Shown piece by piece: positions 34,323-53,527 of a DNA stretch of 64,000 nt (positions within the stretch are counted from its first letter, which is position 1; every line of letters starts with the position of its first letter). The notes under the pieces were generated by a model, which was not told the DNA's origin, did not search any database, and saw only the letters and a list, made by a program, of their open reading frames with translations. The position numbers and the translations under genes are program-made. Source of the stretch: Candidatus Komeilibacteria bacterium (GTDB lineage: Bacteria; Patescibacteriota; Patescibacteriia; UBA1558; GWA2-36-10); assembly GCA_018656065.1 (NCBI GenBank), contig JABHZY010000024.1, positions 75,980 through 139,979 on the forward strand. Reading direction: 5' to 3'.

Positions 34323-34349
34323 TAACTCCACCTCACAGGAGGAAAAATC

Positions 34350-35057: not shown

Positions 35058-35099
35058 CCACTCGCCTTCAGAGATTCTAACCTTAAACCCTTTAAGGGG

Positions 35100-35336: not shown

Positions 35337-35355
35337 AGTAGGTCTCAAAGCCCAG

Positions 35356-35456: not shown

Positions 35457-35530
35457 TCGGAGATCGTCTAATGGTAGGACACCTGGTTTTGGTCCAGGCA
35501 ATCGGGGTTCGATCCCCTGTCTCCGAGCCA
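35457..35530 (+). tRNA. tRNA-Gln (anticodon UUG), CCA encoded
   Basis: Manual fold: acceptor TCGGAGA/TCTCCGA, D-arm GTCT/GGAC, anticodon stem CCTGG/CCAGG with loop TTTTGGT, T-arm CGGGG-TTCGATC-CCCTG, 3' GCCA; 74 nt. Confidence 0.75.
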
Positions 35531-36974: not shown

Positions 36975-37277
36975 TTAATTATTTTTATCCACCAAAATAA
37001 AATAAAAAATTACCACTACAATATCAAGCATTATCCACAAACTTTTTTCATACAAATGAATCGGTAAAAATGGATTAAACAACGCAGCGATAGCAATAAG
37101 TAACCAAAACCAACCATCTGTTCTTTTCTTAATCCCATACAAGGTATAGGCATAAAAAGCGGATACACCTGTTACAATAAATTTTAAAAAATTATAATAA
37201 CCATAAGGAACATCAAAAAAAGATACTACAATTATTATTGTTGCTATTATTGCTGGAGTTTTGCTAATTTTTTTCAT
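36975..37277 (-). CDS. hypothetical membrane protein
   Basis: ORF, 100 aa, 3 TM. Confidence 0.25.
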   Translation of the reverse strand: MKKISKTPAIIATIIIVVSFFDVPYGYYNFLKFIVTGVSAFYAYTLYGIKKRTDGWFWLLIAIAALFNPFLPIHLYEKSLWIMLDIVVVIFYFILVDKNN

Positions 37278-38343: not shown

Positions 38344-38877
38344 TTATATTAACTTTTTATAAATATTATGATTCAAATCGTCAAAAACAACAAAAATTAT
38401 TTCATCAAATGCATCTTGATATTTTTCAATATACTTATTCACTATATCCATAGCTACTTTAGCTGCCTTATCCTTAGGATAACCATACACACCTGTTGAT
38501 ATAGCTGGAAAAGCTATTGTTTTTAAATTATTTTCTCTAGCTAAATCTAAACTTCCTTCGTAACAACTAATCAATAAACCCTTTGGATCATCATCTGAGG
38601 CATAAATTGGTCCTACAACGTGTATTATATGTTTAGCCGGAAGATTATAACCTTTTGTTATTTTAGCACCTCCTACATGACAACCACCTAACCTAGCGCA
38701 TTCTTCTAATAAGTCTTCCCCAGCCGCCATATGGATAGCTCCATCGACTCCTCCTCCACCTAATAGTGTTGGATTAGCTGCATTTACTATAACATCTACA
38801 TTAATAGTTGTTATATCACCTTTTTTTATTGTTATTTTAGTGTTCATAATATTAATACCAACAAATATCTTGCTCAT
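38344..38877 (-). CDS. macro domain protein (ADP-ribose binding/hydrolase, MacroD/YmdB-like)
   Basis: Motifs VDVIVNAANPTLLGGGGVDGAIH and HVVGPIY; the true start is probably ATG 38847. Confidence 0.8.
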   Translation of the reverse strand: MSKIFVGINIMNTKITIKKGDITTINVDVIVNAANPTLLGGGGVDGAIHMAAGEDLLEECARLGGCHVGGAKITKGYNLPAKHIIHVVGPIYASDDDPKGLLISCYEGSLDLARENNLKTIAFPAISTGVYGYPKDKAAKVAMDIVNKYIEKYQDAFDEIIFVVFDDLNHNIYKKLI

Positions 38878-39757
38878 TAGTAATAGCCTTTTTGTCTATA
38901 AGATATTTTATAGCCTCATCATGACTACCCAAAGTATCAATCAATCCATTATCTAGAGCCATCTGTCCTAATACTGTAGAGCCATCTGCTAATTGTGTAA
39001 CTTTATCAACTTCTAGCCCTCTGTTTTGAGCAACCTGATCAATAAAATATCTATACATAATATCTATATCTCTTTGCCACAAAGCCTTTTCTTCTTCCGT
39101 AATTATTTTGTCTGGATCTCCAGTGTCTTTGAATTTTCCAGAATTGAGTTCTATATAAGTAATGCCTTGTTCTTCGTTTTGTTTAGTATAATTTAAATGA
39201 GAAGCTGTAATACCAATACTACCAACATCTGATAAAGGTGAAGCAATTATATAATCAGCTCCTGTCGCCGCCAAATAAGCTGACGACGCAGCTCCATCTC
39301 TAATAACCACCACTGTTGGTTTTGTAGCTTTCTTAAGAGCGTTAGCTATTTCTTCTCCAGCTACAGCACTTCCCCCATATGAACTAATTTCTAGAATTAT
39401 AGCCGAAACACTACTAGACTTTTCTGCATCATTGATTGCCCAAAGAATATCATCAGCTGATGTACTAATAGACACTAGCTCTTCTGACTCATCTCCTGTT
39501 ATCATGGCATATGTAGTCAATTCTCCATTAAGCATTATACCCATAACTGAACAATAGTCTTGATAATCTTCTTCTACATATTCTTCATCATAATATCCAT
39601 AATCATCCTCATCCATCTCATCAAATAAAGATATGAGTTGATTCTCTGCATCATATTTAATTATTATAATAGATGCTGATATAAAAATTAATCCCGCTAT
39701 TACAGCAAAAAATACAGAAAGAGCTATAAAAATTCTTTTCCAATTTAGTTTTGTCAT
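38852..39757 (-). CDS. S49-family peptidase (SppA-like / phage prohead-protease-like), N-terminal TM plus acidic linker
   Basis: Crotonase/ClpP-fold S49 motifs: SYGGSAVAGEEIANAL, DGAASSAYLAATGADYIIASP, DVGSIGI. Confidence 0.65.
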   Translation of the reverse strand: MTKLNWKRIFIALSVFFAVIAGLIFISASIIIIKYDAENQLISLFDEMDEDDYGYYDEEYVEEDYQDYCSVMGIMLNGELTTYAMITGDESEELVSISTSADDILWAINDAEKSSSVSAIILEISSYGGSAVAGEEIANALKKATKPTVVVIRDGAASSAYLAATGADYIIASPLSDVGSIGITASHLNYTKQNEEQGITYIELNSGKFKDTGDPDKIITEEEKALWQRDIDIMYRYFIDQVAQNRGLEVDKVTQLADGSTVLGQMALDNGLIDTLGSHDEAIKYLIDKKAITNEQDICWY

Positions 39758-40094: not shown

Positions 40095-40508
40095 TTATCC
40101 AAATTTAGGTTTATAGTTTATTGGGTCTTCAAAGTATTCTTTTATTTTAGCTATAAATTCTGACGGTATATGATTAGCTGTTACAAAATAATCAGTAACT
40201 CCTAATTCTTTACCTTTAATTATATCTTCTTCCTGTGATAGATTTGTCAGCATGAAGATTGGAATATTTTTAGTTCTCTTATCTTTCATTAATATTTTTG
40301 TAGCCTTATATCCATCCATTACTGGCATGATAATGTCCATAATTATTAAATCAGGATTAATTTCTAAAATGTATTTTACAAATTTATCAGCTTTATCTGT
40401 CTCTGGATGTTCCTTCCAAATATGTTCAAAATTATTCTGTTTAAATTTTACTTGATACATCTTACCTAAAAAAGTGTCATCATCAAATTGTAAAATTTTC
40501 TTTACCAT
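40095..40508 (-). CDS. receiver-only response regulator (REC domain)
   Basis: Acidic pocket FDDD, phospho-acceptor-like IMDIIMP, MLTN; 137 aa, no output domain. Confidence 0.65.
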   Translation of the reverse strand: MVKKILQFDDDTFLGKMYQVKFKQNNFEHIWKEHPETDKADKFVKYILEINPDLIIMDIIMPVMDGYKATKILMKDKRTKNIPIFMLTNLSQEEDIIKGKELGVTDYFVTANHIPSEFIAKIKEYFEDPINYKPKFG

Positions 40509-40525
40509 AATATTATCATAAAAAA

Positions 40526-40894
40526 TTAGTATTTTTTAAATATATTTCTTAATAACACTGGTATTTTATTAAGTGGCCAGAAAATGACAAATCTTGGATA
40601 TGGTCTAATTATTAAATATATAACTAAGCTAATAATAAAAATAATAAACCACCCCCAGGCTGCACCTTCTTCATCACTACAATATCTTGAACAAGAATTG
40701 TAAGAAGTAATAAAAATAAAAGCTAAAAATAATGATAAATAAACAAATAACCCCAATACTGCCTGAAACTTAATTTTATGTTTTTTAACTTTTTTTCGTT
40801 CTGACGTGGATTTTTGGGCAAAAACCCCTTCTCCACAGTACCCGCAAAATGAACTAGTGTGAGCTATATTTTTATTGCATTTAGAACATTTCAT
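40526..40894 (-). CDS. zinc-ribbon membrane protein (paralog 3)
   Basis: N-terminal CSKC-x13-CGYCG, then 2 TM helices. Confidence 0.45.
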   Translation of the reverse strand: MKCSKCNKNIAHTSSFCGYCGEGVFAQKSTSERKKVKKHKIKFQAVLGLFVYLSLFLAFIFITSYNSCSRYCSDEEGAAWGWFIIFIISLVIYLIIRPYPRFVIFWPLNKIPVLLRNIFKKY

Positions 40895-40897
40895 ATA

Positions 40898-41422
40898 TTA
40901 ACTTTTTATAAATGTATTTTTTGCTCTTTTTGATTTCCATAGATACAAAGACCATACAATGGTGTACAAAACTTGTTTTATTGTATCTTCTCCGTATTCT
41001 CCGTCATAAATAAAAATCATGATCAAAAGAACACTACCTATAACGTTTATAATTAAAAACCATTTCTTAAAAGACTTTTTCTTTTTGACCATCAAATAAA
41101 TTAACCACGCAGAAGCAATGATAGCTACAGTACTACCACCTAAAGAATATGCATCAAAACCAAAAGCATCTAGCTCTGTAAAATAATAAAACACCTCAAT
41201 AATTGGACTAATAAAAACTCCAAATGCTAAAAGAGCTAACCAGCCACCAAACCCTTCTTGTTTGTTTTTTTCTTCATTAATAGATTTTATTTGTTCGATG
41301 TGTGATTCAGTTTTTTTAACACCACACTTACCACAAAATTCATGATCTTCTACAATATTATTGCCACATTTATGACATAACATAGATTTTATATTAATAA
41401 TTATTAAATGTATTTTTACCAA
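40898..41422 (-). CDS. zinc-ribbon membrane protein (paralog 2; likely start ATG 41383)
   Basis: CHKC-x11-CGKCG, then 3 TM helices. Confidence 0.45.
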   Translation of the reverse strand: MVKIHLIIINIKSMLCHKCGNNIVEDHEFCGKCGVKKTESHIEQIKSINEEKNKQEGFGGWLALLAFGVFISPIIEVFYYFTELDAFGFDAYSLGGSTVAIIASAWLIYLMVKKKKSFKKWFLIINVIGSVLLIMIFIYDGEYGEDTIKQVLYTIVWSLYLWKSKRAKNTFIKS

Positions 41423-42164
41423 CGGTATCTATATCAATATTCCCATTATAACTAGTTTCTAACTCTAACTCCCAAATAGTATATTCGGAACTTGTTGTGT
41501 CGAAATCAAACGTACCATCAAATTCAAAAAAACTTGGTTTTAAAGTAAATTCTTTTGAATAAGAATCCCAATCATTTCCCTGAGTTGCAATGACTTTATA
41601 GTTACCATCAGATATACCTGTGACTGTAAAAATATTATTTTTTTTAACATAAAAAGTAATAATTGACTTGTTAGTTCTCGTACTAACAAGTTTTATTACA
41701 GCGTCCTCATTAGTTCCATTATCTATAGTTAGCTCTCCCTCGCCACTTAAATAATAGCTAACAGAATCAATTGTAAAACCATTAGTTAAAGATCTAATAT
41801 TGGCAGGTGGTTTTACATAAGTAGGAGTATTTACATTTTTATTATTCTCAGATACATAATTACTATCTGAATCATTAGATGCCGCTATAATAATAATGAC
41901 TATTACTATAACTAGTATTATGAAAAATTTAGAATATCTCATTATCCAATCTTTAAATTCTCCTGAGGGTTTATTATCTGTTGTCTTTTTGGCTTTATAA
42001 ACACTAGATTCATTTTGTGCCAAGCTAGTATCTACTGGTGAGCCACAGTCTGTACAAAAACTAGAATTAGCTTCTATAAGTTTACTACAATTATTGCAGT
42101 ATTTTGTCACTTCTACATCATCATTTGTGGATAGAAAATCAGTTTTTAAATCTAATTTTTTCAT
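41394..42164 (-). CDS. zinc-ribbon membrane protein with extracytoplasmic domain (paralog 1)
   Basis: CNNC-x11-CTDCG, 1 TM, about 150-aa C-terminal beta-rich domain. Confidence 0.45.
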   Translation of the reverse strand: MKKLDLKTDFLSTNDDVEVTKYCNNCSKLIEANSSFCTDCGSPVDTSLAQNESSVYKAKKTTDNKPSGEFKDWIMRYSKFFIILVIVIVIIIIAASNDSDSNYVSENNKNVNTPTYVKPPANIRSLTNGFTIDSVSYYLSGEGELTIDNGTNEDAVIKLVSTRTNKSIITFYVKKNNIFTVTGISDGNYKVIATQGNDWDSYSKEFTLKPSFFEFDGTFDFDTTSSEYTIWELELETSYNGNIDIDTVGKNTFNNY

Positions 42165-42179
42165 AATTTTATAATTATT

Positions 42180-43259
42180 TTACCATCTCTCTAAATGAGC
42201 TAATGACTCATATCGATTAATTTCATTAATATCAATTGGATTATAGCGTTTTATGTCATCTTCAATCATTTTTTGATCTATATATGGCTTATCATCATTC
42301 GCTGCACTTCGAGAAACATTTTCAAGTATACCCTCTATAATATCTGAACTAGCATAATTTTCAGTTAAATTAGCTAATGTATCAAAGTTAATTTTTTTAC
42401 TTGTTGGTCTGCCAGATAAACCTATTTTAAATAATTCTTTTCTTGCTTCAAAATCAGGTGGTGATACATATATTCTTTTGTCCATTCTACCAGAACGTAA
42501 TATTGCCATATCAATTCTATCTGGATAATTTGTTGCAGCTACAACTAAAATTTTGTTATCACTTGCGTCATTTAATTGCATGAGAAACTCATTAATTTCT
42601 TCTTCTTTATGAGATGAGGAATCCTGTAAACCATCTCTTTTGGGGACCAATCCGCTAATCTCATCAAGAAAAATAATTGCTGGGGCATTCATTTTTGCCA
42701 TTTCAAATACTTTACCAATATTACTAACTGAACCATGAATAAAAGGCGTCGCAAGATCAGAATGTTTTATTTCATAATATTTATACTTTAGTTCTTCGGC
42801 TAATTTCCTAACTATAAATGTTTTACCGCAGCCGGGTGGTCCATATAGTAAAACTCCATTAGGAATTGACACTTTAAATTTTTTAAAACGTTCTGGTTGT
42901 AAAAGCGGGTTAATAACGTCTTTTAACAATAATTCTTTAAGTTTTCTCATCCCAGCCACACTTTGAAAGCCTTTTAATATAGTTAAGTCTTCTATAACGG
43001 ATGTTATTTTTTCATTAGAATGTTCCTTAACAATTAATCCGAGATAACTTTTATCACCATATTTTATTTTCAATAAATCTTTTTTTCTACTTTCATTAAC
43101 TATATCTTCATGAATTAAATTCGTAAATAAATATAAAAAATCATCATCTGATAATTCGTATATTTCTGTAAAATAAAGTTTTTCTATTCTACGAACCACA
43201 AGAACATCTTTCTTTATTTTAAACCCATTATGTAGTGTTGGTTTATTTTGTATAGTCAT
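42180..43259 (-). CDS. classic-clade AAA+ ATPase with unknown N-domain
   Basis: Walker A GPPGCGKT, Walker B IIFLDEISGL, second region of homology ATNYPDRIDMAILRSGRMDKRIYV. Confidence 0.8.
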   Translation of the reverse strand: MTIQNKPTLHNGFKIKKDVLVVRRIEKLYFTEIYELSDDDFLYLFTNLIHEDIVNESRKKDLLKIKYGDKSYLGLIVKEHSNEKITSVIEDLTILKGFQSVAGMRKLKELLLKDVINPLLQPERFKKFKVSIPNGVLLYGPPGCGKTFIVRKLAEELKYKYYEIKHSDLATPFIHGSVSNIGKVFEMAKMNAPAIIFLDEISGLVPKRDGLQDSSSHKEEEINEFLMQLNDASDNKILVVAATNYPDRIDMAILRSGRMDKRIYVSPPDFEARKELFKIGLSGRPTSKKINFDTLANLTENYASSDIIEGILENVSRSAANDDKPYIDQKMIEDDIKRYNPIDINEINRYESLAHLERW

Positions 43260-43261
43260 AA

Positions 43262-44914
43262 TTATGCTTTATTTACTATTCTAGACTTATATACCCATGC
43301 AGCTATCCAAAAAATGAACCCCACACCATAGAACCATACTGTAAGCCATCCTAAGATATATAATATATTATGAACATGCATTTTTTTACTTATGTTACTA
43401 AGTTTATGTGTTAATCCAGAATATAAAACGCAATCAAAAAGTACTGTCACTATATTTCGTTCATATGTGTCTCCTAACTTATTTTGTATAGCAGTTAACA
43501 TATCTCTTCGCATTTCATCCAATTGACTTAAATTATCAATATTTGCATCTTTTATTGTTTGAACTACACTATTTAAAACCTTATCAATTGCTTCTTTATC
43601 AAGTTCAAATAAATCAAAATTATCATATATTAATTGATACATTTCATCAAACATTGGCAATGCACTTTCTTTGTTGATTGACCACTGCTCTACCGTTTCT
43701 TCATACATTTTCATTATATATAATATAAGAGCCATTTTTTTCTGCTCCTGAAGTTGTTGGATTCTTTTTACGTTTTTTGGTTTTTTGGTTTTTTCATCAG
43801 CTAAATATTCATCAGCTTTTTGCATTGCTTCTTGATATTTTTTCTCTTCAAATAAATCTAATAACGGTTTTAATTCTTTTGCATCTTTTTCTACATCCTT
43901 AAGTGTTTTTTTATCTTGTTTAAGCTTATTAGTTAAACTATCGGTACCTGCTATTTCTTCAGCTACATTAATTAAAGAAATAGATATATCGGTTTCACTT
44001 AAATTATTGTGTAAATCAAGAACAATTAATCTTAAAGCATTTGCTACACGATCTCTTAATGATTTAACTTTCGTATCATCATATAGACCTATGTCTATCA
44101 ATTTATTAAGTTCGCCTTGTATTACTTCTATAGATTGTTGAATTTCTTTTTTTTCTTCGTCATCGAAAATACCATCTTCACTAACATTAAGACCCTCGAG
44201 TTTTGAAACATGTTCGGATAAAATATTAACAGTGGGGTTAATATATTCTTTTTCAACGTTAGAACCATGAGTATCAAATAATTCATTGAAATGTAATATG
44301 ATACTTGGGTCATTATGTTTTTTAGCAAGATCACTAAAAATATCTGCTAATAATTTTGTAGCCTGTTCTTGTAATTCTTTATATAAAGTATTATCTACTC
44401 CTAAATCATCATGAAGATCATATACCTTTTTAAAACTGTTCCAAAATTTATCAGATTCGATAATCTCTTTCCATAAAATTAAAACTCTATCTAGATATAA
44501 TTTATTCACATTAGTTTCTAAAAAAGATATCAATAAAATTGCTAAATTTTTTCTATACCCATATGATTTAATTGTATTACCAATAGCTTTATCATCCCAA
44601 ACACGAATAGCATCTTCTATATTATTAGATTTCAATAGCCCAACTGCTTGTTCATCTAAATTGTCTCGTATCTCAAACCAAAAAAAGTATTCAAAAATTT
44701 TCTTTCTTGGTAAAGCCAAGCGCTCAGCTGCTTTTTTTACTTCAAGTTCATTTTTACGTAATGGAACTTCATTTATATCTAAATCATAAGTGGGAATATC
44801 ATCAATTTTGTTACGCGCTATAATCTCTCTTAATCTTTTAGCTATATCACTTGTTGTAGCAGTAGTATCTAAACCAAGAGTCCGATAAGCGTTGTTAGAT
44901 ATGTAGTTACTCAT
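43262..44914 (-). CDS. J-domain-like co-chaperone candidate with C-terminal membrane anchor (no canonical HPD)
   Basis: N-terminal AYRTLGLDTTATTSDIAKRLREI resembles J-domain helix II. Long helical middle. C-terminal TM helices. Start/stop abut the Hsp70 and AAA genes. Confidence 0.4.
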   Translation of the reverse strand: MSNYISNNAYRTLGLDTTATTSDIAKRLREIIARNKIDDIPTYDLDINEVPLRKNELEVKKAAERLALPRKKIFEYFFWFEIRDNLDEQAVGLLKSNNIEDAIRVWDDKAIGNTIKSYGYRKNLAILLISFLETNVNKLYLDRVLILWKEIIESDKFWNSFKKVYDLHDDLGVDNTLYKELQEQATKLLADIFSDLAKKHNDPSIILHFNELFDTHGSNVEKEYINPTVNILSEHVSKLEGLNVSEDGIFDDEEKKEIQQSIEVIQGELNKLIDIGLYDDTKVKSLRDRVANALRLIVLDLHNNLSETDISISLINVAEEIAGTDSLTNKLKQDKKTLKDVEKDAKELKPLLDLFEEKKYQEAMQKADEYLADEKTKKPKNVKRIQQLQEQKKMALILYIMKMYEETVEQWSINKESALPMFDEMYQLIYDNFDLFELDKEAIDKVLNSVVQTIKDANIDNLSQLDEMRRDMLTAIQNKLGDTYERNIVTVLFDCVLYSGLTHKLSNISKKMHVHNILYILGWLTVWFYGVGFIFWIAAWVYKSRIVNKA

Positions 44915-44915
44915 A

Positions 44916-47417
44916 TTAATTTGTTATACCTGATAAATTATCCCCTAAAATTTCCTGCTCTTCTTTAGGTAATAAAGACATTAAGCCTCGTACACTTTCT
45001 TGTAAACCATCTTCATCACCATTTTCTATGGCAGCTTTCCCTTTATTAATATAATATTTTGCCTCATCATCATTAGTAAAATTATAACCACCCTCTGTTA
45101 ATCTCTCATATTGAGCAGCCCAAAAAGCCGGATTTTCAATCATTATAGACATACCAAGATCTGTTATTTGTTCATTGATTCTCAAAAGTAGCTCTTTATC
45201 ATTTTTTTCAATAGCTGTCTCACCTTCTTTTTTTAATATATTAAACTGTTCTTGTTTTTCAATTTTTTTATCTTCTTTTAGTAAAACAACAATAAATTTC
45301 TGAGTATCTTCACAGCTGCTTTTAAATTTTTTAATTAAAACTGAAATCTCTGAATCTTTTTCAATGCGCGCTAATTCATTTTGTAATTCACGTAGTTCTT
45401 TTTGCGCCTTTCTTCCATCATCTTGGTCAGTCGAAGCATTTTTTATATTGTTTGATATGGAAGATAACTTTTCCTGAAATGATTTACGTTCTGAGGTTGA
45501 ACTAACATTTGATAAATCGCTTACTTGTTTTCTAGCTGTCTCAGTTTCTTCAATAAGCTTCTGTTTATCTATATCTTTTGCAAAAATTGAACCTCTTGCA
45601 TTAAACGATTTATCTATTTGTTCAATATACGCATAAACAGAAACCTGTCGGGATTCATCAACTTCAATAGTTAATTCAATTGGCGTACTAGCTGGTAAAT
45701 CCTTTGGAATATCACTACCCTTAATTAATAAGTTACAAACTTCCATATTTTTATGTGGATCATCAGACTCTCCTTCTTTAATCCAAATTGGAAGTTCAAC
45801 GTCCTGTCCTTTTTCCAATTTTTTAATTGTTTTATATGTAGTTGGCTCTGATTTTAATGGTAATATACTCCCACGATCAAATATTGGTACAAATTTATTT
45901 TTATAACTAAAATTATTAGCACTATCACGTTGAGCTATAACTATACCTATTGTGTGTGCAATTGGAGCATTTGATACTGAAAGTCCATGAGTAATTGAAA
46001 ATGAATCAGGATCTATTGTTATTGGTTTATTTTTATCATTAAACAAATATAAATAATACACATTTTGTTTGTTTGTTTCTAATGGTAAAGTATCATAAAA
46101 TTTTCCATTCTTAAGTTTAATTTTCTGACTACTATAATGCCCACTATCACTCTGTATTTGGAGAGAATAAGCCTCTTCAATACCATCAAGTTCTTTAATA
46201 ATTCCCGATATTGCAGTTTCAGTTTCAGATGTCAATGTATCATAATTAAGATCTATAGATAATATATTGTTTTTTAACTTTTTTTTATGCTTACGAATAT
46301 TATCTGGTATTTTTTGACTAGTAGAAAAAATACTAGCGCCTCTAGCTATAGATGTTAAAGGATCTGAGGTAGTATCAACATCAATTTTTAAATCATATTC
46401 TAATCGTTGACGAATATAAGGCACTAATGTTGATCCCCCAACAAGAACTATCTTGGATATGGCTGATTTTTTTATACTAGATGATTTTATTACTTTATTA
46501 GTAAGTTCAATTGTTTTATCAATTTTTATTTTTATTAATTTTTCAAATTCTTTTCTAGTAAAAATAAATGAAAAATTTATTTCATTCCCATTGTCATCCA
46601 TACCAATATCACTAATTTCAATCGTAGCTTTTTCATATTGTGATAAATACACTTTAGATTGTTCAGCCATGTACTTAAGTTTGGCAAATATGGTTTTAAT
46701 ACTAGAATCAGAATTTGACCGATCAATATTAGCAACAGAATATTTTTCTTGAATTTTAGGAATAATTATTTGATCAACTATAATGTTGTCAAAATCTTTA
46801 CCTCCTAAAAAATTATCCCCTTGATGCTCAAGCACACTAAGAGTTCCACCTTTTGAAGATATAAGAGCTATATCAAAAGTTCCGCCTCCTAAATCGTATA
46901 CTAACCAGTTTTCATCTTTAGATTTCATGAAGCCATATGAAATAGCTGCTGCTATAGGTTCTTGTAATAAAACTACATAGTCAAATCCAGCTAAATTACC
47001 AGCTCTTTTTGTGGCCTCTGATTGAAGAATTGAGAAATGTGCAGGCACAGTTATAACTACTGCTGAAGTATCAAAATCAGGATATTTACGTAATATATCT
47101 TCTTTTAAATTTTTTATAATCTCTGCTGATATTTCTTCTGCTAATAAGCCCTTTTTTAATCTAGGAAAAACCACTTTTTCAGCACTACCCATTAATCTTT
47201 TAATCTCTGCTTTATAATTTTCTACGTCTTCACGTAATGATTCCTTTGCCGTTTTACCAACAATTATATTACCTGATTTATCAACGCCAACTACGGAATG
47301 TGTATATTCGTCATTAAATATGTTTTTTACAATTTCTACATTTCCTCCTATATTTACTGCTACTTCGGAATTTGTAGTGCCTAAATCAATACCAATTTGT
47401 ATGTTTTGTGTATTCAT
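44916..47417 (-). CDS. Hsp70-family ATPase (DnaK/HscC-like) with extended C-terminal region, 833 aa
   Basis: IGIDLGTTNSEVAV, VYDLGGGTFDIALI, LVGGSTLVPYIRQ actin-fold/Hsp70 motifs. The rest is beta-rich then coiled coil. Confidence 0.85.
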   Translation of the reverse strand: MNTQNIQIGIDLGTTNSEVAVNIGGNVEIVKNIFNDEYTHSVVGVDKSGNIIVGKTAKESLREDVENYKAEIKRLMGSAEKVVFPRLKKGLLAEEISAEIIKNLKEDILRKYPDFDTSAVVITVPAHFSILQSEATKRAGNLAGFDYVVLLQEPIAAAISYGFMKSKDENWLVYDLGGGTFDIALISSKGGTLSVLEHQGDNFLGGKDFDNIIVDQIIIPKIQEKYSVANIDRSNSDSSIKTIFAKLKYMAEQSKVYLSQYEKATIEISDIGMDDNGNEINFSFIFTRKEFEKLIKIKIDKTIELTNKVIKSSSIKKSAISKIVLVGGSTLVPYIRQRLEYDLKIDVDTTSDPLTSIARGASIFSTSQKIPDNIRKHKKKLKNNILSIDLNYDTLTSETETAISGIIKELDGIEEAYSLQIQSDSGHYSSQKIKLKNGKFYDTLPLETNKQNVYYLYLFNDKNKPITIDPDSFSITHGLSVSNAPIAHTIGIVIAQRDSANNFSYKNKFVPIFDRGSILPLKSEPTTYKTIKKLEKGQDVELPIWIKEGESDDPHKNMEVCNLLIKGSDIPKDLPASTPIELTIEVDESRQVSVYAYIEQIDKSFNARGSIFAKDIDKQKLIEETETARKQVSDLSNVSSTSERKSFQEKLSSISNNIKNASTDQDDGRKAQKELRELQNELARIEKDSEISVLIKKFKSSCEDTQKFIVVLLKEDKKIEKQEQFNILKKEGETAIEKNDKELLLRINEQITDLGMSIMIENPAFWAAQYERLTEGGYNFTNDDEAKYYINKGKAAIENGDEDGLQESVRGLMSLLPKEEQEILGDNLSGITN

Positions 47418-47420
47418 AAT

Positions 47421-47936
47421 TTATTTTTTATTCTTCAATAAAATAACCTTCGCTTTATTTACAAAATGCCCTTTTACTATAATTGCTGGTTCGATAGTTT
47501 CTTTTATCATTGGCCATTTTAAATTATCCATTTGCTCAACAGATAATATTTCTACATTCATTCCCTCTGTATATTTTTCTTCATGATATTCACGAATCTC
47601 TACATCATGACGTTTAAGATAACCTTTCAATTTATGCACTGAATTTTCCATGATCTTTTTCTTATTATCATCGATGGAGTCAGACAAGCTATTTATTTTT
47701 CTTTCTAATCTCCATACCTCAATAGCTAGCTCAACAAAATCTTTAGTATCTTGAGAGATTTGTAAAAATTTTGACTGTACAGATGATTTAATCTCTGTCT
47801 TAAGCATAATTACTGACTCCTGTAATCTATTAATAATATTCAATAAAAGCTTAATTGTTGCTATTATCCCAATTAAAATAAAAACTATAGCTACTGAAAT
47901 AACTAAAATTTTAAAATCAACCATTAATAAATTCAT
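47421..47936 (-). CDS. membrane-anchored GrpE-like nucleotide exchange factor candidate
   Basis: N-terminal TM, long helix, C-terminal ...VEIL...IIVKGHFVNKAKVILLKN resembling the GrpE C-terminal beta domain (KGY.LNgRviRpA.V). Stop lies 3 nt before the Hsp70 start. Confidence 0.4.
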   Translation of the reverse strand: MNLLMVDFKILVISVAIVFILIGIIATIKLLLNIINRLQESVIMLKTEIKSSVQSKFLQISQDTKDFVELAIEVWRLERKINSLSDSIDDNKKKIMENSVHKLKGYLKRHDVEIREYHEEKYTEGMNVEILSVEQMDNLKWPMIKETIEPAIIVKGHFVNKAKVILLKNKK

Positions 47937-47961: not shown

Positions 47962-49305
47962 TTAGTATGGATCTGTACAAATATATACTCCGTCCTCTAC
48001 ATAACCTGCGTATCTACTATTTCTTCCAACATCTCTTTCACAAATAACATTGATTGAAGCAGTAGTAACACAAGATGTTCTATCTATATTCCAATCATAA
48101 CTATAACCACAACCACATACTCTTTTATCATTTTGTATATAAGAGTAACTACCTGTCCCATATGCGTTAATGCAAGAATTATTAAGTGCATCTATAGTAT
48201 AACACGCAGTTCTATCATTATTCCAATAATATCCTGATTTACAAGCACAAATATTAGTTTTACCATCTTCTGAATATTCTAAGAAACTTGTTCCCGGATA
48301 ACTTTTTGCACAAGATTGATCTCTTGCAACTATTAAATCTATACAGCTAGTGCGAGCAGTATTCCAATCATACCCACTAATACAATCACAAATTGGACCA
48401 CCGTTATCACCCTTTTTACCACTATAACGACTTTTATTCCCATATGCATCTTTACATATTTGATCATTTGTTTTTGGAACAATAGGCACAATAACACATA
48501 TTGTTTTCGAAACATTCCACATATAACCAGATAAACACCCACAAATTGGATCACCATTAGAATCTATATCTCCAGTCGAATAACTATATACTCCGTGATT
48601 ATCTATACAAATCTCTTTATTACTTTTTGTCTTTGGAATTATTGGAATATATATGTCATCTTCCTTATCTTCCGTCTTTTGATCTACTATAACATTTATA
48701 TCATCTTTTTTAATTTCAACTGAATCATCTATTTTTGAAATTATGTTTTCTGGAATTAATGTGTGGTACATCCATCCGGTTGCCTTTGTCCAACTAGATT
48801 GTGGCAATTCTTCTGCCTGCGAAGTGTTATTATCAAAATATCCACGCTCGATAAGATTCACTTTATACCACTCACCAGAAGATTCAATAATCTCTATACG
48901 AGGCAACATCGCGCCATATTGAATAACATCACAATCAAATGAAGGACACTCTCGTAAATTTTCATTTCCTATGCCTTCAAAGACCATTGGTATGTCTGCA
49001 CCATCTATTTTATTAAAATCATCAGTCTCAGAAGTTATAATATCTGAAGTTATGATATCTTTAGTTAAATCTGTTGGAATATCATTATCTGAATTAATTT
49101 TTGAAACAATAAGAAAAATAAAAAAAAGACCAATAATACTAAAAATTAAAATGTTCATCCATTTAACTTTATTACTATTAGACACTTTTTTATTAGAATC
49201 TAATTCTTTATTTGAATTAATACTATTGGCTTGCTTTGTTTTTAAAGAGTCTTTATCGTCAAGGAAACTAAGATCAATATTTAAAGACTTTCTCTTCTTT
49301 TTCAT
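47962..49305 (-). CDS. membrane-anchored extracytoplasmic protein with SH3b-like domain and about 5 Cys-rich repeats
   Basis: Signal anchor. GEWYKV...GWMY (SH3_3-like). Repeats of the form C..AYG..S.YSG..GD.G.PICxCxSGYxWNxxRTxC. Confidence 0.4.
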   Translation of the reverse strand: MKKKRKSLNIDLSFLDDKDSLKTKQANSINSNKELDSNKKVSNSNKVKWMNILIFSIIGLFFIFLIVSKINSDNDIPTDLTKDIITSDIITSETDDFNKIDGADIPMVFEGIGNENLRECPSFDCDVIQYGAMLPRIEIIESSGEWYKVNLIERGYFDNNTSQAEELPQSSWTKATGWMYHTLIPENIISKIDDSVEIKKDDINVIVDQKTEDKEDDIYIPIIPKTKSNKEICIDNHGVYSYSTGDIDSNGDPICGCLSGYMWNVSKTICVIVPIVPKTNDQICKDAYGNKSRYSGKKGDNGGPICDCISGYDWNTARTSCIDLIVARDQSCAKSYPGTSFLEYSEDGKTNICACKSGYYWNNDRTACYTIDALNNSCINAYGTGSYSYIQNDKRVCGCGYSYDWNIDRTSCVTTASINVICERDVGRNSRYAGYVEDGVYICTDPY

Positions 49306-49421: not shown

Positions 49422-50738
49422 CTAGCTTTTAAGAGTTAATAACTTATTATTTAACATTAATCTACTTTGAAAACAACCCAGTAACTCTCTTTTTTCTAAT
49501 ATACTCCCTTCTCTTAATATATACTTTGCATAATTTCGTATATCAATATCAGCAATTACAACTCTGTCTTTTACTCCCAATAATGCTTGTTGAAATTTTT
49601 TAAACCTCTCAACCTCAATTTTAATCTTCTCTTTAATTCCAATTTCATTGATATCTATAGTTCCAATCAATTTCTCAAATTGCTTAACTAAATCTAATTC
49701 ATTTATATACCCACATTTACAAAATCTATCTCTTGTTTTTGCACAACTGTAGTAGATATAACGATGTACATTACCATTTTTCTGTTTCTTTATTTTCTGC
49801 TCAGCAGTTATACCAGAACCACATAATCCACATTTCATTAATCTAGTAAAAGCAAACTCTTTGTTATTAACCTTAACAATGTGTTTTTGCATTTGTTCTT
49901 GAGTCGCATCAAACAACTCTTTAGTGATAATAGGCTCATGTTTACCTGTATACCAATTACCACTTCTCTTCGGATACTCAAAAACACCATAATAGAAGGT
50001 ATTTTTGAAGAGTACGTAGAGATTACCTAATGTAAGATTTTTATTACCTACTGTCTTAAAATTTAAATCAAATTTTAGCCAATGGTAAACTTTACGACCA
50101 CTCCATTTTTCATAAGCAACTTTTTCAAATATCTGTTTGATAATAGGGGCGCGGTCTGGGTCAATAATAGCCTCACATTTATGATCCATATTTTTATCTT
50201 TTAAATATCCAGTTGGAGCGGGCGCAGGCCATAAACCCATCTCAACTCTTGCTTTAAGTCCCCTTCTTACATTTATACTTTTATTATCATTCTCTAACTT
50301 TGCCTGCGAACATAAAATCATTAAAAGAAATTTTTCGTTTGGCGAGTTCTTAAACTGTTGACCATAGGTACGTATCTCAATTAATAACTTCTGATCCATA
50401 AGATCTACTAAACTTCCTAGATCTCCGGCATTTCTACTTAGCCTATCTGGCGCCCAAGTTATAATCCCGTTATATCTCCCACGCCTTATATCTTCAAGTA
50501 TTTCTTTAAACACTGGACGTTGTCCAGAATCTTTAGCAGAATGAGCTTCTCTACGTATATCTATAATCTCAAGCTCATCACGCTCTGCGATTGCAAGCAT
50601 TTCTTTAACTTGTGAATCAATAGAAAGAGCCTGTTTCTCGTCTGATTCAGTTGATTTACGAGCATATAAACAATACTTAATTTTAACGTCTGTGACTTGT
50701 TTTTCCTTACCAATTAAGGATGTTTTATTGTTTTCCAT
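49422..50738 (-). CDS. large serine recombinase (resolvase/integrase)
   Basis: Catalytic N-domain YARKSTESDEKQ...RLSRN, recombinase domain, Zn ribbon CGLCGSG...YYSCAK. Confidence 0.8.
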   Translation of the reverse strand: MENNKTSLIGKEKQVTDVKIKYCLYARKSTESDEKQALSIDSQVKEMLAIAERDELEIIDIRREAHSAKDSGQRPVFKEILEDIRRGRYNGIITWAPDRLSRNAGDLGSLVDLMDQKLLIEIRTYGQQFKNSPNEKFLLMILCSQAKLENDNKSINVRRGLKARVEMGLWPAPAPTGYLKDKNMDHKCEAIIDPDRAPIIKQIFEKVAYEKWSGRKVYHWLKFDLNFKTVGNKNLTLGNLYVLFKNTFYYGVFEYPKRSGNWYTGKHEPIITKELFDATQEQMQKHIVKVNNKEFAFTRLMKCGLCGSGITAEQKIKKQKNGNVHRYIYYSCAKTRDRFCKCGYINELDLVKQFEKLIGTIDINEIGIKEKIKIEVERFKKFQQALLGVKDRVVIADIDIRNYAKYILREGSILEKRELLGCFQSRLMLNNKLLTLKS

Positions 50739-50892
50739 ACCTTAATTGATGACACATTTCATAGCTTCTGCTAAGCACTACGTTGTCGACAACTTGTTGG
50801 CAACTTTCCTTAGCAAAACATCAAATAAGCGTTATAATATAGACGTAAACATACATAATATGTATAATTGAAATAATTATTAAATTAAAAAT

Positions 50893-51696
50893 ATGTCAGG
50901 ATTTTTTGCATTTTTATTATTTTTATCATTACTTAGCATACCTATTGGATTGATAAAGCCTAGTCTTTTTAATAAACTATTTAAAAAAGATATGACTAGG
51001 AAGAAATTGACTATCATTTTTGTTATTACTAGCTTTGTATTATTTTTTGCTTTTGGGTCTACTGTTGATTCTACCGTTGACATTCAAGATAATAAAACTA
51101 TTGATGTTCAAGATGATAAAATAGCTCTTAAAGAAAATAATGAGCCCACTGACACTCAAAAAGAACCTAACGAAGAAGAAAAAAATACAGTAGTAAATGA
51201 AGAATCTGAAGAAACGAATAATACAAACGAAGAAGAAAACACAGTATTAAATAATAAATCCGAAGAGTCTAATACTAACACAGATGAAAATGATATTACT
51301 CCTCCACCAACCCAAGTAGAAGAGCCAATAATAGATCCAGCTCCTCAAACAACTAGGGAAAGCGCATTAGTAATTTTAAAAGAAAATGCTAAACAAGAAT
51401 GGGGAGAAGACTACAGTATGGTTCAATATGAATATGAAGGCCAAGTAGAAGCCTATGATTGGGTTATGGCTAAAACCGAATATCCAGATATTATGAATAA
51501 GGCCAAACAAGAATGGGGAAATGATTATAAAATGGTTAAGTATGAATATGAAGGTCAAGTAGAAGCCTATGAATGGATAGAAGCCCAAACAGAATATCCA
51601 AACATTATGAGTAATGCTAAACAAGAATGGGGAGATGATTATAAAATGGTTAAGTATGAGTACAATAAGCAGGTTGAAGCTTATGATAACTTATAA
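50893..51696 (+). CDS. membrane-anchored acidic protein with three 39-aa tandem repeats
   Basis: TM. E/N/T-rich low-complexity region. Three copies of AKQEWG-DY-MV-YEYEGQVEAY-W--A-TEYP-IM. Confidence 0.4.
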   Translation: MSGFFAFLLFLSLLSIPIGLIKPSLFNKLFKKDMTRKKLTIIFVITSFVLFFAFGSTVDSTVDIQDNKTIDVQDDKIALKENNEPTDTQKEPNEEEKNTVVNEESEETNNTNEEENTVLNNKSEESNTNTDENDITPPPTQVEEPIIDPAPQTTRESALVILKENAKQEWGEDYSMVQYEYEGQVEAYDWVMAKTEYPDIMNKAKQEWGNDYKMVKYEYEGQVEAYEWIEAQTEYPNIMSNAKQEWGDDYKMVKYEYNKQVEAYDNL

Positions 51697-53133: not shown

Positions 53134-53527
53134 ATTCTTTATTGTTATCTGATAAAATATCCGCCAATTGCAGAGCTTTGTGAACTACTGCAGTTTGTGA
53201 CGGAGTAAGTTCTCCTGAATCTTCAAATTTAGAAGTAACTTCTACTTTGTCTCTAAAACGTGGATTTCGATGATTAAGCCAAAACCTTATAGCAGAAAAA
53301 TTTTTTTCTTTTATAAGAGTCAATAATTGGCTTTCAGACATATCATTAACCAAGTCTTCACCTTCGACTAATGCCTCATCCATAGCTTTAGAGAATTTTT
53401 TATCGTCTCGCTTCCAACGATAGATACTATTTCTTGATATGCCAGTTTTCTCGCAAGCTACTTGCACTATTGGAACTTTTTTTAGCTCCGCAAGAAAGCT
53501 GTCTCTAATTCTATTTTTCTTAGACAT
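53078..53527 (-). CDS. HTH protein, terminase small subunit-like
   Basis: N-terminal helix-turn-helix (CEKTGISRNSIYRWK). Position is immediately upstream of TerL and overlaps it by 56 nt. Confidence 0.4.
   Translation of the reverse strand: MSKKNRIRDSFLAELKKVPIVQVACEKTGISRNSIYRWKRDDKKFSKAMDEALVEGEDLVNDMSESQLLTLIKEKNFSAIRFWLNHRNPRFRDKVEVTSKFEDSGELTPSQTAVVHKALQLADILSDNNKEYVKEKNDTTRASRSNDKG

What the first reader, a model, noticed from the sequence alone, without database searches (positions are those of the whole stretch)
40095..47936. Mobile-element-borne, membrane-tethered Hsp70 triad (GrpE-like, Hsp70, J-like) coupled to an AAA+ ATPase, three zinc-ribbon membrane proteins and a receiver-only regulator
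Seen in sequence: eight co-directional genes with abutting or overlapping stops and starts on the minus strand.
- (i) 47421-47936: a 171-aa protein with an N-terminal TM helix, a long helix and a C-terminal KGHFVNKAKVIL segment that resembles the GrpE beta-domain.
- (ii) 44916-47417: an 833-aa Hsp70 with all three actin-fold phosphate/adenosine motifs and an atypical long C-terminal region.
- (iii) 43262-44914: a 550-aa protein whose N-terminus resembles J-domain helix II (AYRTLGL...DIAKRLREI) but has no HPD motif, and whose C-terminus is TM-anchored.
- (iv) 42180-43259: a classic-clade AAA ATPase (Vps4/katanin/FtsH-like box II) with an unknown N-domain.
- (v-vii) Three paralogous proteins, each with an N-terminal CxxC-N11-13-CxxC zinc ribbon followed by TM helices.
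- (viii) A standalone REC domain.

From established knowledge, the membrane-anchored J-protein plus specialised Hsp70 arrangement is reminiscent of E. coli HscC-DjlC. I know of no described module that adds a tethered GrpE analog, a classic AAA ATPase and zinc-ribbon membrane proteins, and none carried on an integrated element in a reduced genome.

Inference: this is either a cargo-encoded membrane protein remodelling or extraction machine, or a conflict system.
Basis: partly seen in the sequence, partly recalled or inferred. Interest (0 to 1): 0.85.

Follow-up and report, generated by a model that had tools for sequence, protein, structure and literature searches.

The report
Membrane-tethered Hsp70–AAA machine with tagged clients
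A mobile operon found sporadically in tiny symbiotic (Patescibacteria/CPR) bacteria encodes its own membrane-anchored Hsp70 chaperone set plus a Cdc48-like unfolding motor, together with diverse membrane proteins that all carry the same short N-terminal tag, which suggests an undescribed machine that handles surface proteins.

Summary
All eight minus-strand genes exist as described.

**Parts confirmed**
- The 171-aa protein belongs to a divergent, TM-anchored GrpE family: 25 of 27 orthologues hit Pfam GrpE.
- The 833-aa protein is an ATPase-competent Hsp70. Its J-domain contact residues are remodelled across the whole family.
- The 359-aa protein is a classic-clade AAA, closest to Cdc48 D2.

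**What is conserved**
- The order GrpE-like, Hsp70, J-like, AAA is fixed in about 44 loci, nearly all Patescibacteria. They sit in variable, MGE-rich contexts.
- REC and two of the three zinc-ribbon proteins were not found at any other locus examined.

**New findings**
- Genes lying between the J-like and AAA genes elsewhere, and the 447-aa gene upstream here, fall into at least four unrelated membrane-protein classes.
- All share an N-terminal tag, [KH]-L-x-h-D-L-[DE]-F-L-D.
- In some genomes the ectodomain is fused to the J-like protein instead.
- Every Hsp70 ends in SGIT-x.

**Reading**
The best reading is a tag-directed chaperone/unfoldase acting on co-encoded membrane proteins. Its biological role (surface remodelling or conflict) is inferred. 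I found no description of this module.

The parts
47962..49305 (-). Tagged single-pass membrane protein (447 aa). It has the N-terminal tag 'SLNIDLSFLDD' at aa 7-17, a low-complexity linker, a TM at aa 46-64, an SH3-like segment and Cys-rich EGF/TNFR-like repeats outside the cell.
   Evidence: sequence; weak SH3_3, RANK_CRD_2, ADGRF3_N; TM; it shares the tag with every gene found between the J-like and AAA genes in other loci. Its C-terminal half is 50-54% identical to those in L006-L013, L021 and L030.
47421..47936 (-). TM-anchored GrpE homologue (171 aa), the predicted nucleotide-exchange factor of the module's Hsp70.
   Evidence: 25 of 27 family members hit PF01025, best 9e-9; precomputed GrpE hits on orthologues. 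N-terminal TM. The window copy alone is below Pfam detection.
44916..47417 (-). Atypical Hsp70 (833 aa). It has an NBD, an insertion of about 100 aa, a divergent SBD-beta, a long helical C-terminal region and a conserved extreme C-terminus '[LM]SGIT-x'.
   Evidence: NBD; below the DnaK equivalog cut-off; catalytic residues conserved throughout; R167->V/I in 37 of 39, N170->Q and T173->I in 39 of 39. SBD-beta hhalign P = 3e-4. C-terminal tail motif conserved in the 39 orthologues.
43262..44914 (-). Tail-anchored scaffold (550 aa). It has an HPD-less J-fold domain (aa about 8-80, 'YDLD' where YHPD would be), a conserved TPR-like helical region (to about aa 330), a variable helical region and a C-terminal TM (aa 517-535).
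42180..43259 (-). Classic-clade AAA ATPase (359 aa) with a conserved N-domain of unknown fold (aa 1-95); the predicted unfoldase or extractase.
   Evidence: PF00004 7e-34; FtsH, PAN, CDC48, CdvC families, all below equivalog cut-offs; Cdc48/p97/VAT D2 best; Walker A/B and SRH arginines conserved; pore loop Y/F-x-H-G.
41394..42164 (-). Zinc-ribbon membrane protein znA (256 aa). It has a degenerate tag 'KKLDLKTDFL', CxxC-x11-CxxC, one TM and a beta-rich ectodomain that recurs downstream of the AAA/DUF6804 genes in other loci.
   Evidence: ectodomain homologues in L006-L013 and L019.
40898..41422 (-). Zinc-ribbon plus DUF2569 multi-TM protein znB. The public gene call starts at 41383 (161 aa). 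It was not found next to the module in any other locus examined.
   Evidence: DUF2569 3e-11, Zn_Ribbon_1 1.6e-4; (only one weak match, in L041).
40526..40894 (-). Zinc-ribbon 2-TM protein znC (122 aa). It was not found at any other locus examined.
   Evidence: (no counterpart elsewhere).
40095..40508 (-). Stand-alone receiver domain (137 aa). It was not found at any other locus examined.
   Evidence: PF00072 2e-13; (no counterpart in other loci).
38852..39757 (-). TM-anchored SppA/S49 peptidase (301 aa). A homologue follows the module in six other loci.
   Evidence: TIGR00706 SppA_dom 165.6 bits, above cut-off; phrog_53; L006, L007, L008, L011, L015, L030.
36975..37277 (-). DUF6804 small 3-TM protein. 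In other loci it is usually the gene directly after the AAA.
   Evidence: PF20619 1.8e-20; 18 of the flanking ORFs scanned are DUF6804.
49422..54794 (-). Neighbouring cassette: large serine recombinase (49422-50738), an unknown repeat protein on the + strand (50893-51696), TerL (51691-53133), TerS-like HTH (53078-53527) and ParB-N6/N4 methylase (53520-54794). It marks the mobile context and is not part of the chaperone machine.
   Evidence: The same cassette lies next to the module in the opposite orientation in L047/L022. A serine recombinase and TerL also lie next to the module in L018, L020, L028, L029, L031 and L042.

Best explanation
This is a self-contained, horizontally mobile operon for a membrane-tethered Hsp70 machine that acts on its own co-encoded membrane proteins.

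Shown:
- a TM-anchored GrpE homologue;
- an ATPase-competent but non-DnaK Hsp70;
- a tail-anchored scaffold whose N-terminus has a J fold without HPD, followed by TPR-like repeats;
- a Cdc48/FtsH-type AAA ATPase.
These four always occur together and in this order. Unrelated integral membrane proteins encoded inside or next to the operon all begin with the same cytosolic tag, [KH]-[LI]-x-h-D-L-[DE]-F-L-D. A disordered linker and a TM helix follow the tag.

Inferred mechanism:
1. The scaffold docks the tag. The gene fusions point to the scaffold as the partner. The scaffold may also dock the conserved SGIT-x tail of the Hsp70, in the way TPR co-chaperones bind EEVD.
2. The scaffold positions Hsp70 at the membrane, with the anchored GrpE recycling it.
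3. Hsp70, the AAA ring, or both then engage the 40-60-residue unstructured N-terminal tail. They pull on, unfold or extract the membrane protein, and so set the amount or conformation of the variable ectodomains displayed on the cell surface.

Inferred role: because the operon is cargo of variable, MGE-rich regions in episymbiotic Patescibacteria, it most likely serves surface remodelling in a conflict or host-interaction setting rather than general proteostasis.
For: Identity of the parts.

Strict four-gene synteny in about 44 loci from many Patescibacteria lineages.

Topology: the GrpE-like protein has an N-terminal TM, the scaffold a C-terminal TM, and the tagged proteins an N-in single or multi-pass topology (and the sequences).

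Tag: the regex hits 45 of 2430 ORFs, and 41 of these are exactly the module-linked genes, with the tag starting about 4-8 residues after the initiating Met. The tagged proteins fall into at least four unrelated classes: RDD, Yip1, Cys-rich EGF/TNFR-like, and coiled-coil with two Cys.

Fusion ('Rosetta stone'): in L017, L032 and L039 no separate tagged gene exists. There the scaffold continues through its TM into an S/T linker and the coiled-coil/Cys ectodomain.

Coupled changes: HPD is lost from the J fold, and in parallel the Hsp70 residues that contact HPD in DnaK are replaced family-wide (R167, N170, T173).

Conserved Hsp70 C-terminal tail.

Accessory or mobile status.
Against: - No binding, ATPase or phenotype data exist.
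- The partner of the tag is not identified; Hsp70 SBD, AAA N-domain and scaffold are all possible.
- No co-folding could be run.
- The SBD-beta assignment is weak (hhalign probability 39%).
- No protease is a fixed member, so 'extraction for degradation' lacks its end point. SppA is present in only about 7 of 44 loci and may face outwards.
- L037 and L043 show neither a tagged gene in the gap nor a fusion.
- The element boundaries in the window were not found.
Confidence: 0.5

Rival explanations
1. Chaperone-guarded abortive-infection or exclusion system. The dedicated Hsp70 (with the AAA) keeps tagged membrane proteins (RDD, Yip1, DUF6804, DUF2569 and others) inactive by holding their N-terminal tag. 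Phage or invading-element proteins titrate or perturb the chaperone. The membrane proteins are then released and damage or seal the membrane. This resembles toxin-antitoxin-chaperone systems, in which a chaperone-addiction tag is the switch.
For: - MGE and defence-island neighbours: SoFic, LmuA-like, PDC-S04, BpuJI, C5-methylase, UvrD, RhuM, integrases.
- An XRE regulator lies directly upstream in at least 10 of 41 loci.
- Distribution is sporadic and some copies are decayed, in L028 and L036.
- The membrane partners are variable while the ATPase core is conserved.
- Chaperones acting as phage sensors have precedents in the literature listed (DnaJ-bNACHT25; TAC systems).
Against: - No recognisable toxin or effector domain is a fixed member.
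- PADLOC finds no system-level match; only a generic AAA similarity to IetA, which is weaker than the match to FtsH or Cdc48.
- Many tagged proteins have large, disulfide-rich or coiled-coil ectodomains, which look like surface or receptor proteins rather than pores.
- The defence enrichment among neighbours is modest and was not tested statistically.
Confidence: 0.22
2. Import or pulling motor analogous to the mitochondrial PAM complex. A membrane-tethered Hsp70 with an anchored GrpE and a J-like (Pam16-like) subunit ratchets polypeptides, or the N-termini of the tagged proteins, through a membrane channel formed by the associated multi-TM proteins. It would work as a dedicated insertion or translocation pathway for element-encoded surface proteins.
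For: - All soluble domains are predicted on the cytosolic face next to TM anchors.
- A shared N-terminal signal on diverse proteins is typical of sorting systems.
Against: - The tag lies on the cytosolic side and the ectodomains lie C-terminal to the TM, so ordinary Sec/YidC insertion would suffice.
- No conserved channel protein is present.
- No HPD-bearing J partner is present in the module.
- The AAA has no counterpart in PAM.
Confidence: 0.1
3. Chaperone set serving the mobile element's own life cycle (replication, packaging or particle assembly). Precedents are phage lambda, which uses host DnaK-DnaJ-GrpE for replication, and closteroviruses, which use an Hsp70 homologue for virion assembly.
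For: TerL, TerS, a ParB-methylase and a serine recombinase lie next to the module in the window and in at least seven other loci.
Against: - The cassette occurs in either orientation relative to the module and is absent from the flanks of most loci.
- No capsid, portal or tail genes lie nearby.
- Only 1 of 2.9 million IMG/VR contigs carries the module, and no GenBank phage or PLSDB plasmid does.
- Membrane anchoring and the tagged membrane proteins are not explained.
Confidence: 0.06
4. It is simply the host's housekeeping dnaK-dnaJ-grpE set in a divergent lineage.
For: All three functional classes of an Hsp70 system are present. The host's canonical dnaK was not seen in the 64-kb window. The 635-aa ORF that looked like a candidate is PBP2, within an mre operon.
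Against: - The score of 238 bits is far below the DnaK equivalog cut-off of 822.
- There is no HPD motif, and the J-interface residues are replaced.
- The components are membrane-anchored.
- Only 39 loci were found among 185,579 species genomes. This is a pattern-limited lower bound.
- The flanks are MGE-rich and variable, and some copies are pseudogenised.
Confidence: 0.02

Closest known systems
E. coli HscC-DjlC/DjlB (specialised Hsp70 with C-terminally membrane-anchored J-proteins). Basis: my own knowledge of the family.
   Same: A non-DnaK Hsp70 paralogue is encoded next to a tail-anchored co-chaperone, and the system is accessory rather than essential.
   Different: DjlC and DjlB have a canonical HPD J-domain, and HscC works without GrpE. 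There is no AAA partner, no tagged membrane clients, no TPR-like scaffold and no insertion or SGIT tail in the Hsp70.
[not shown]
   Different: PAM has an HPD-bearing partner (Pam18), a defined channel (TIM23) and no AAA ATPase. It is eukaryotic and essential, and is not cargo of mobile DNA.
ERAD-C / membrane-protein extraction (Ssa1 Hsp70, tail-anchored J-protein Hlj1, Cdc48/p97) and bacterial FtsH dislocation from free cytosolic tails. Basis: my own knowledge.
   Same: It combines Hsp70, a tail-anchored J-type co-chaperone and a Cdc48-type AAA. The substrates are membrane proteins with an accessible cytosolic tail.
   Different: The module has no ubiquitin system, no proteasome and no fused protease. 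Recognition would be through a short genetically encoded tag. Homology is limited to the generic Hsp70, J and AAA folds.
GAP1-N2 GTPase-centric predicted conflict systems with HSP70, GrpE and a DnaJ- or TPR-fused FNIII protein (Kaur et al. 2020, eLife, PMC7159879)
   Same: It is a predicted accessory, membrane-proximal system that couples a dedicated Hsp70, a GrpE and a J- or TPR-bearing partner with variable membrane and extracellular components.
   Different: Those systems are built around TRAFAC GTPases and GAP1, occur in Actinobacteria and Firmicutes, use FNIII-repeat proteins and have no classic AAA. No GTPase, GAP1 or FNIII domain appeared among the families reported for the module or its scanned flanks.
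Toxin-antitoxin-chaperone (TAC) systems (bioRxiv 10.1101/2024.02.24.581848, listed)
   Same: A dedicated chaperone recognises a short appended tag on a co-encoded partner protein.
   Different: TAC uses a SecB-like chaperone, a C-terminal tag on a soluble antitoxin and a defined toxin. None of these is present here.
CoCoNuT Type III systems with Hsp70-like CnuD (Bell et al. 2024, eLife, PMC11090510)
   Same: An Hsp70-like NBD/SBD is recruited into a predicted defence operon.
   Different: CnuD has degenerate ATPase motifs, is fused or linked to McrBC and HEPN nucleases and is predicted to bind RNA. Here the ATPase motifs are intact and the partners are GrpE, J-like and AAA.

Membership tests
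Hsp70 superfamily (PF00012) | Actin-fold NBD with phosphate-1, phosphate-2 and adenosine motifs and catalytic residues | tested here: met
   Pfam 2.2e-71 over aa 8-364. DnaK NBD structures match at 1e-52.
Hsp70 superfamily (PF00012) | Peptide-binding SBD-beta following a hydrophobic linker | tested here: inconclusive
   Pfam and PDB phmmer align only the NBD. hhalign of the family's C-terminal half against DnaK 380-638 gives probability 39% and P = 3e-4, with the expected register. An insertion of about 100 aa precedes it.
DnaK orthologue (TIGR02350 prok_dnaK) | Score above the curated equivalog cut-off | tested here: not met
   238.1 bits against a cut-off of 822.55. The HscA models are also far below their cut-offs.
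DnaK orthologue (TIGR02350 prok_dnaK) | Conserved J-domain (HPD) contact residues R167, N170, T173 | tested here: not met
   V/I in 37 of 39, Q in 39 of 39 and I in 39 of 39 orthologues.
GrpE (PF01025) | Sequence match to the GrpE profile | tested here: met
   25 of 27 family members match, best E = 9.2e-9. Precomputed hits are on record for orthologues. The window protein alone is below detection but aligns over its full length with the family.
GrpE (PF01025) | Nucleotide-exchange activity on the partner Hsp70 | not testable with these tools
   Needs a biochemical assay.
J-domain proteins (PF00226) | Four-helix J fold | tested here: met
   [not shown]
J-domain proteins (PF00226) | HPD tripeptide between helices II and III | tested here: not met
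   A conserved 'Y-D-L-D' occupies the position of 'Y-H-P-D', after an 8-residue insertion. No HPD is present in any of the 26 aligned members.
J-domain proteins (PF00226) | Stimulation of Hsp70 ATPase | not testable with these tools
   Needs a biochemical assay.
Classic-clade AAA (Cdc48/FtsH/PAN/Vps4) | Walker A/B and a second region of homology with arginine fingers | tested here: met
   PF00004 7e-34. The Cdc48 D2 domain matches at 2.5e-40. GPPGCGKT, hhhhDE and RSGRMD are conserved in 40 orthologues.
Classic-clade AAA (Cdc48/FtsH/PAN/Vps4) | Membership of a named subfamily (FtsH, PAN, CDC48, CdvC, IteA equivalogs) | tested here: not met
   All are far below the curated cut-offs, for example FtsH 170.7 against 600 and CdvC 121 against 650. 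The N-domain matches nothing.
HscC-DjlC type system | Tail-anchored co-chaperone with a canonical HPD J-domain; no GrpE partner | tested here: not met
   A tail anchor is present, but HPD is absent and a dedicated GrpE homologue is present.
Known anti-phage defence systems (PADLOC 2.0) | Match of the component set to a catalogued system | tested here: not met
   Only the AAA hits IetA and TRIP13 models, and it does so generically. The other components have no significant hit.
GAP1-N2 GTPase-centric HSP70-GrpE systems (Kaur et al. 2020) | TRAFAC GTPase(s), GAP1 and an FNIII-repeat protein in the neighbourhood | tested here: not met
   No GTPase, GAP1 or FNIII domain appears among the Pfam families reported for the window genes or the flanking ORFs of other loci.

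The most novel reading that the evidence does not exclude
The module is a prokaryotic, ubiquitin-independent counterpart of eukaryotic membrane-associated Hsp70 machines (ERAD-C or PAM-like). A short genetically encoded N-terminal tag (h-L-x-h-D-L-[DE]-F-L-D) would address otherwise unrelated integral membrane proteins to a tail-anchored J-fold/TPR scaffold. That scaffold would also hold the Hsp70 by its conserved SGIT-x C-terminal tail, as EEVD-TPR docking does in eukaryotes. A Cdc48-like AAA would then extract or reset the tagged proteins. This would make it a new tag-directed membrane-protein sorting or extraction pathway, spread by mobile DNA among CPR bacteria.
Probability: 0.25. Interest if true: 0.9.

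Novelty: new variant of a known kind. Interest (0 to 1): 0.72.

Why it matters
Specialised bacterial Hsp70 systems are few (DnaK, HscA, HscC). As far as I could find, none combines a dedicated membrane-anchored GrpE, an HPD-less J-fold scaffold and a Cdc48-type AAA.

Three features make the system directly testable:
- HPD has been lost together with the DnaK residues that read it.
- The Hsp70 has a conserved C-terminal tail.
- Unrelated membrane proteins share a tag.

These offer a natural experiment on how Hsp70 can be activated and targeted without the canonical J-domain mechanism. They also define a candidate client set that can be read straight from the sequence.

Biologically, the module is cargo of mobile regions in Patescibacteria, which depend on surface contact with host cells. 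It could therefore bear on how these organisms, or their mobile elements, reshape the cell surface or exclude competitors.

If the tag-directed extraction reading holds, it would also be a bacterial analogue of eukaryotic membrane-protein quality-control machines.

Tried and rejected
- **Housekeeping dnaK operon.** Rejected on score, motifs and distribution. An ORF run at 10.5-17.3 kb that looked like hrcA-grpE-dnaK-dnaJ by size is in fact mreB-mreC-mreD-PBP2-greA-mreB. The host's own dnaK could therefore not be seen.
- **Complete prophage.** Rejected. TerL, TerS and ParB-methylase are present, but no portal, capsid or tail genes are. The module is nearly absent from IMG/VR, with 1 contig, and absent from GenBank phages, PLSDB plasmids and BFVD folds.
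- **att sites.** No copy of the tRNA-Gln 3' end and no convincing direct repeats flank the region. The element boundaries remain undefined.
- **Pfam GrpE on the window protein alone, and the GrpE-family profile against PDB sequences.** Neither gave a GrpE hit. Family-wide scanning was needed.
- **Census of tag-bearing proteins in the 5.8-billion-protein collection.** A 44-residue profile returned only 3 short fragments.
- **afdb50 fold library.** Unavailable.
- **Promoter and terminator scan.** Uninformative in this AT-rich DNA.
- **A 4-kb gene-free gap upstream of the module in L003.** Suspected to be a large ncRNA; it is a 23S-5S rRNA operon.
- **Literature searches.** They found no description of the module or of DUF6804.

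Full report
**1. What is in the window**

They are packed with gaps of 1-17 nt and one overlap.

The window is chromosomal DNA of a low-GC (about 29%) Patescibacteria organism. The 171-aa protein is identical to a protein that NCBI names as from 'Candidatus Komeilibacteria bacterium', found on contigs up to 448 kb. Housekeeping genes lie on both sides:
- to the left, RNase P RNA, an mre operon with PBP2, GreA, ProRS and RecJ;
- to the right, CTP synthase, an S41 protease and a MurA/EPSP-type enzyme.

**2. Identity of the parts**

*Hsp70.* The 833-aa protein has an unambiguous Hsp70 NBD: Pfam 2e-71, and 1e-52 to solved DnaK NBDs. In an alignment of 39 orthologues with E. coli DnaK, every catalytic residue is conserved. 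The residues that contact the HPD motif of DnaJ are replaced throughout the family:
- R167 to V/I;
- N170 to Q in 39 of 39;
- T173 to I in 39 of 39.

An insertion of about 100 aa follows the NBD. A divergent SBD-beta can be aligned only weakly (hhalign P = 3e-4). The long helical C-terminal region ends in a conserved '[LM]SGIT-x' tail in the 39 orthologues. The protein scores 238 bits against the DnaK equivalog cut-off of 822, so it is not a DnaK orthologue.

*GrpE-like protein.* The 171-aa protein alone hits nothing. Its family, 27 aligned members at 30-42% identity, matches Pfam GrpE in 25 cases, best 9e-9. Orthologues also carry precomputed GrpE hits. All members have an N-terminal TM helix with positive-inside residues after it. 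That places the GrpE domain in the cytoplasm.

*J-like scaffold.* The 550-aa protein has no Pfam, NCBIfam or PADLOC family. It belongs to a large uncharacterised family: more than 150 close homologues, and 1912 cluster representatives at E <= 1e-3.
- The first 330 residues or so are conserved.
- The last 200 or so come in three forms: helical with a tail anchor (as here), a soluble beta-rich domain, or a TM followed by an ectodomain.
- The full-length AF2 model (pLDDT 82) is all-helical and resembles TPR or helical-repeat co-chaperone domains only generically.
- The N-terminal 80 residues have four helices in J-domain order.
- A family profile weakly hits J domains in the PDB.
- hhalign against eight J domains gives 85.5% probability. 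The conserved 'YDLD' falls where 'YHPD' would be.

So this is a J fold that fails the defining HPD test. The loss matches the altered HPD-contact residues in the Hsp70.

*AAA ATPase.* The 359-aa protein is a classic-clade AAA with intact Walker A/B and SRH arginines. Its pore loop is unusual (Y/F-x-H-G) and its conserved N-domain matches nothing. It is closest to Cdc48/p97/VAT D2 but belongs to no named subfamily.

*Other genes.* The three zinc-ribbon proteins share only the CxxC-x11-CxxC ribbon. The REC domain is genuine.

**3. The conserved unit**

I examined the following loci:
- 39 from species-representative genomes, mostly Paceibacterota, Saccharibacteria, Uhrbacteria, Doudnabacteria, Peregrinibacteria, Moranbacteria and Yanofskybacteria, plus a few bins labelled as other phyla;
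- several metagenome contigs;
- one IMG/VR contig.

In all of them the order GrpE-like, Hsp70, J-like, (0-2 membrane-protein genes), AAA is kept wherever the contig allows.

Other recurring neighbours are:
- DUF6804, a small 3-TM protein, which usually follows the AAA;
- an XRE-type HTH gene directly before the GrpE-like gene in at least 10 of 41 loci;
- a homologue of the znA ectodomain and a TM-anchored SppA, which follow in a subset.

REC and znC have no counterpart anywhere else. znB has one weak match, in L041.

**4. A shared tag on the associated membrane proteins (new)**

Every gene lying between the J-like and AAA genes begins, a few residues after the initiating Met, with [KH]-[LI]-x-h-D-L-[DE]-F-L-D. 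In 39 distinct examples F and L are invariant and D and L are at least 92% conserved. A 30-50-residue low-complexity linker and a TM helix follow.

A regular expression for the tag, applied to the first 70 residues, hits 45 of 2430 ORFs in all loci plus the window. Of these, 41 are exactly the module genes.

In the window the tagged gene is the 447-aa ORF immediately upstream of the GrpE-like gene ('MKKKRKSLNIDLSFLDDKD'). znA starts with a degenerate version ('KKLDLKTDFL').

The tagged proteins belong to at least four unrelated classes:
- RDD;
- Yip1-like multi-TM;
- Cys-rich EGF/TNFR-like repeats;
- a coiled-coil hairpin bracketed by two cysteines.

In three Saccharibacteria loci without a separate tagged gene, the J-like protein itself continues through its TM into an S/T linker and that coiled-coil/Cys ectodomain. 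This fusion argues that the scaffold and the tagged proteins act as one complex, and that the tag replaces a covalent link to the scaffold.

**5. Context**

In the window the module lies in a co-directional gene run bounded on the left by tRNA-Gln (35457-35530). The run contains a NERD protein, DUF6804, a Macro domain and SppA. To the right of the module lie a large serine recombinase, TerL, TerS and a ParB-methylase, followed by DUF3800.

The recombinase-TerL-TerS-methylase cassette recurs next to the module in other genomes, in either orientation. There are no capsid, portal or tail genes.

Flanks elsewhere hold integrases, Fic/SoFic, RhuM, restriction-modification genes, UvrD-like helicases and other defence-catalogue families. 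Some flanks are plain housekeeping genes or an rRNA operon. Two loci carry decayed copies.

The module is therefore accessory and horizontally mobile. I could not define the element's ends. I also could not verify directly that carrier genomes have a canonical dnaK.

**6. How it most likely works**

Shown: the parts, their fixed association, their membrane-proximal topology and the shared tag.

Inferred:
1. The tail-anchored J-fold/TPR scaffold docks the tag, and possibly also the SGIT tail of the Hsp70.
2. The anchored GrpE recycles the Hsp70.
3. Hsp70, the Cdc48-like AAA, or both engage the unstructured cytosolic tail and pull on, unfold or extract the tagged membrane protein.
4. This controls which variable ectodomains are displayed on the surface.

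The closest working analogies are ERAD-C (Hsp70, tail-anchored J-protein, Cdc48), FtsH-type dislocation from free tails, and the PAM motor. Homology does not go beyond the generic folds.

A defence reading, in which the chaperone guards membrane effectors as in TAC systems, is the main rival and is not excluded. Service to the element's life cycle and a housekeeping role are unlikely.

**7. Novelty**

Full-text searches found no description of this module. The nearest published items are predicted GTPase-centric conflict systems that include HSP70, GrpE and DnaJ/TPR-FNIII proteins, and the Hsp70-like CnuD of CoCoNuTs. Both differ in core components.

I class it as a new variant of a known kind, namely a specialised Hsp70 system. 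A reading not excluded by the evidence, tag-directed membrane-protein extraction or sorting, would be categorically new.

Noticed in passing
window 32400-35350 (+ strand): An island of about 50-55% GC sits in a 29% GC genome, between the Fur/ZIP genes and tRNA-Gln. It holds small + strand ORFs: a REC-like ORF at 33362-33771; two tiny paralogous ORFs ending in WWLRK, each followed by a near-identical 'cactctaaggagtg.ccaaccggg' element; and a 235-aa lipoprotein-like ORF. Two tandem c-di-GMP-II riboswitch aptamers lie upstream of the REC-like ORF: 32995-33078 at 74 bits, and 33166-33291 at 49.7 bits, just under the gathering score. The promoters around the island are AT-rich and host-like.
   Followed up: partly
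window 50893-51696 (+), repeats at 51385-51687: The only + strand gene inside the co-directional run encodes a 267-aa protein. It has an N-terminal TM, an acidic low-complexity region and three 114-bp (38-aa) tandem repeats ('AKQEWG.DY.MVKYEYEGQVEAY.W') at 77-84% identity. An ORF of similar size (213 aa, + strand) occupies the same position between TerL and the recombinase in L047; its similarity was not tested.
   Followed up: no
window 49422-54794; L047 13655-19226: A conserved cassette of ParB-N6/N4 methylase, TerS-like HTH, TerL, a small opposite-strand ORF and a large serine recombinase, with no capsid, portal or tail genes. It lies next to the Hsp70 module in either orientation in several Patescibacteria genomes. 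It may be a satellite-like or remnant packaging element. TerL is at most 26% identical to any GenBank phage terminase.
   Followed up: partly
window 40095-40508: The stand-alone receiver domain keeps the acidic pocket (DDD), the acceptor Asp and the Thr. It appears to lack the conserved Lys ('DYFVTAN' where 'DY..KP' is usual) and has an insertion after beta-1, so it may be an atypical or pseudo-receiver. This was read by eye from the sequence.
   Followed up: no
window 11603-12616 and 16264-17316: Two full-length MreB paralogues (both above NCBIfam cut-offs) bracket greA, PBP2, mreD and mreC in one co-directional cluster.
   Followed up: no
L028 (whole module) and L036 588-5719: In two genomes the module genes are broken into several short ORFs, which indicates decayed or pseudogenised copies or poor assemblies.
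   Followed up: no
L001 14301-15951; window 38344-38877 and 36104-36718: A Macro domain protein accompanies the module in the window and in L001, where a 372-aa SNase-domain protein follows it. The window also has a 2-TM NERD nuclease-related protein. These are possible effector-like neighbours, but they do not recur in most loci.
   Followed up: partly
L046 1852-6592: On the single IMG/VR contig, the module is preceded by a UvrD-like helicase (647 aa), a 502-aa protein and a 364-aa protein. This resembles a helicase-nuclease defence gene set.
   Followed up: no
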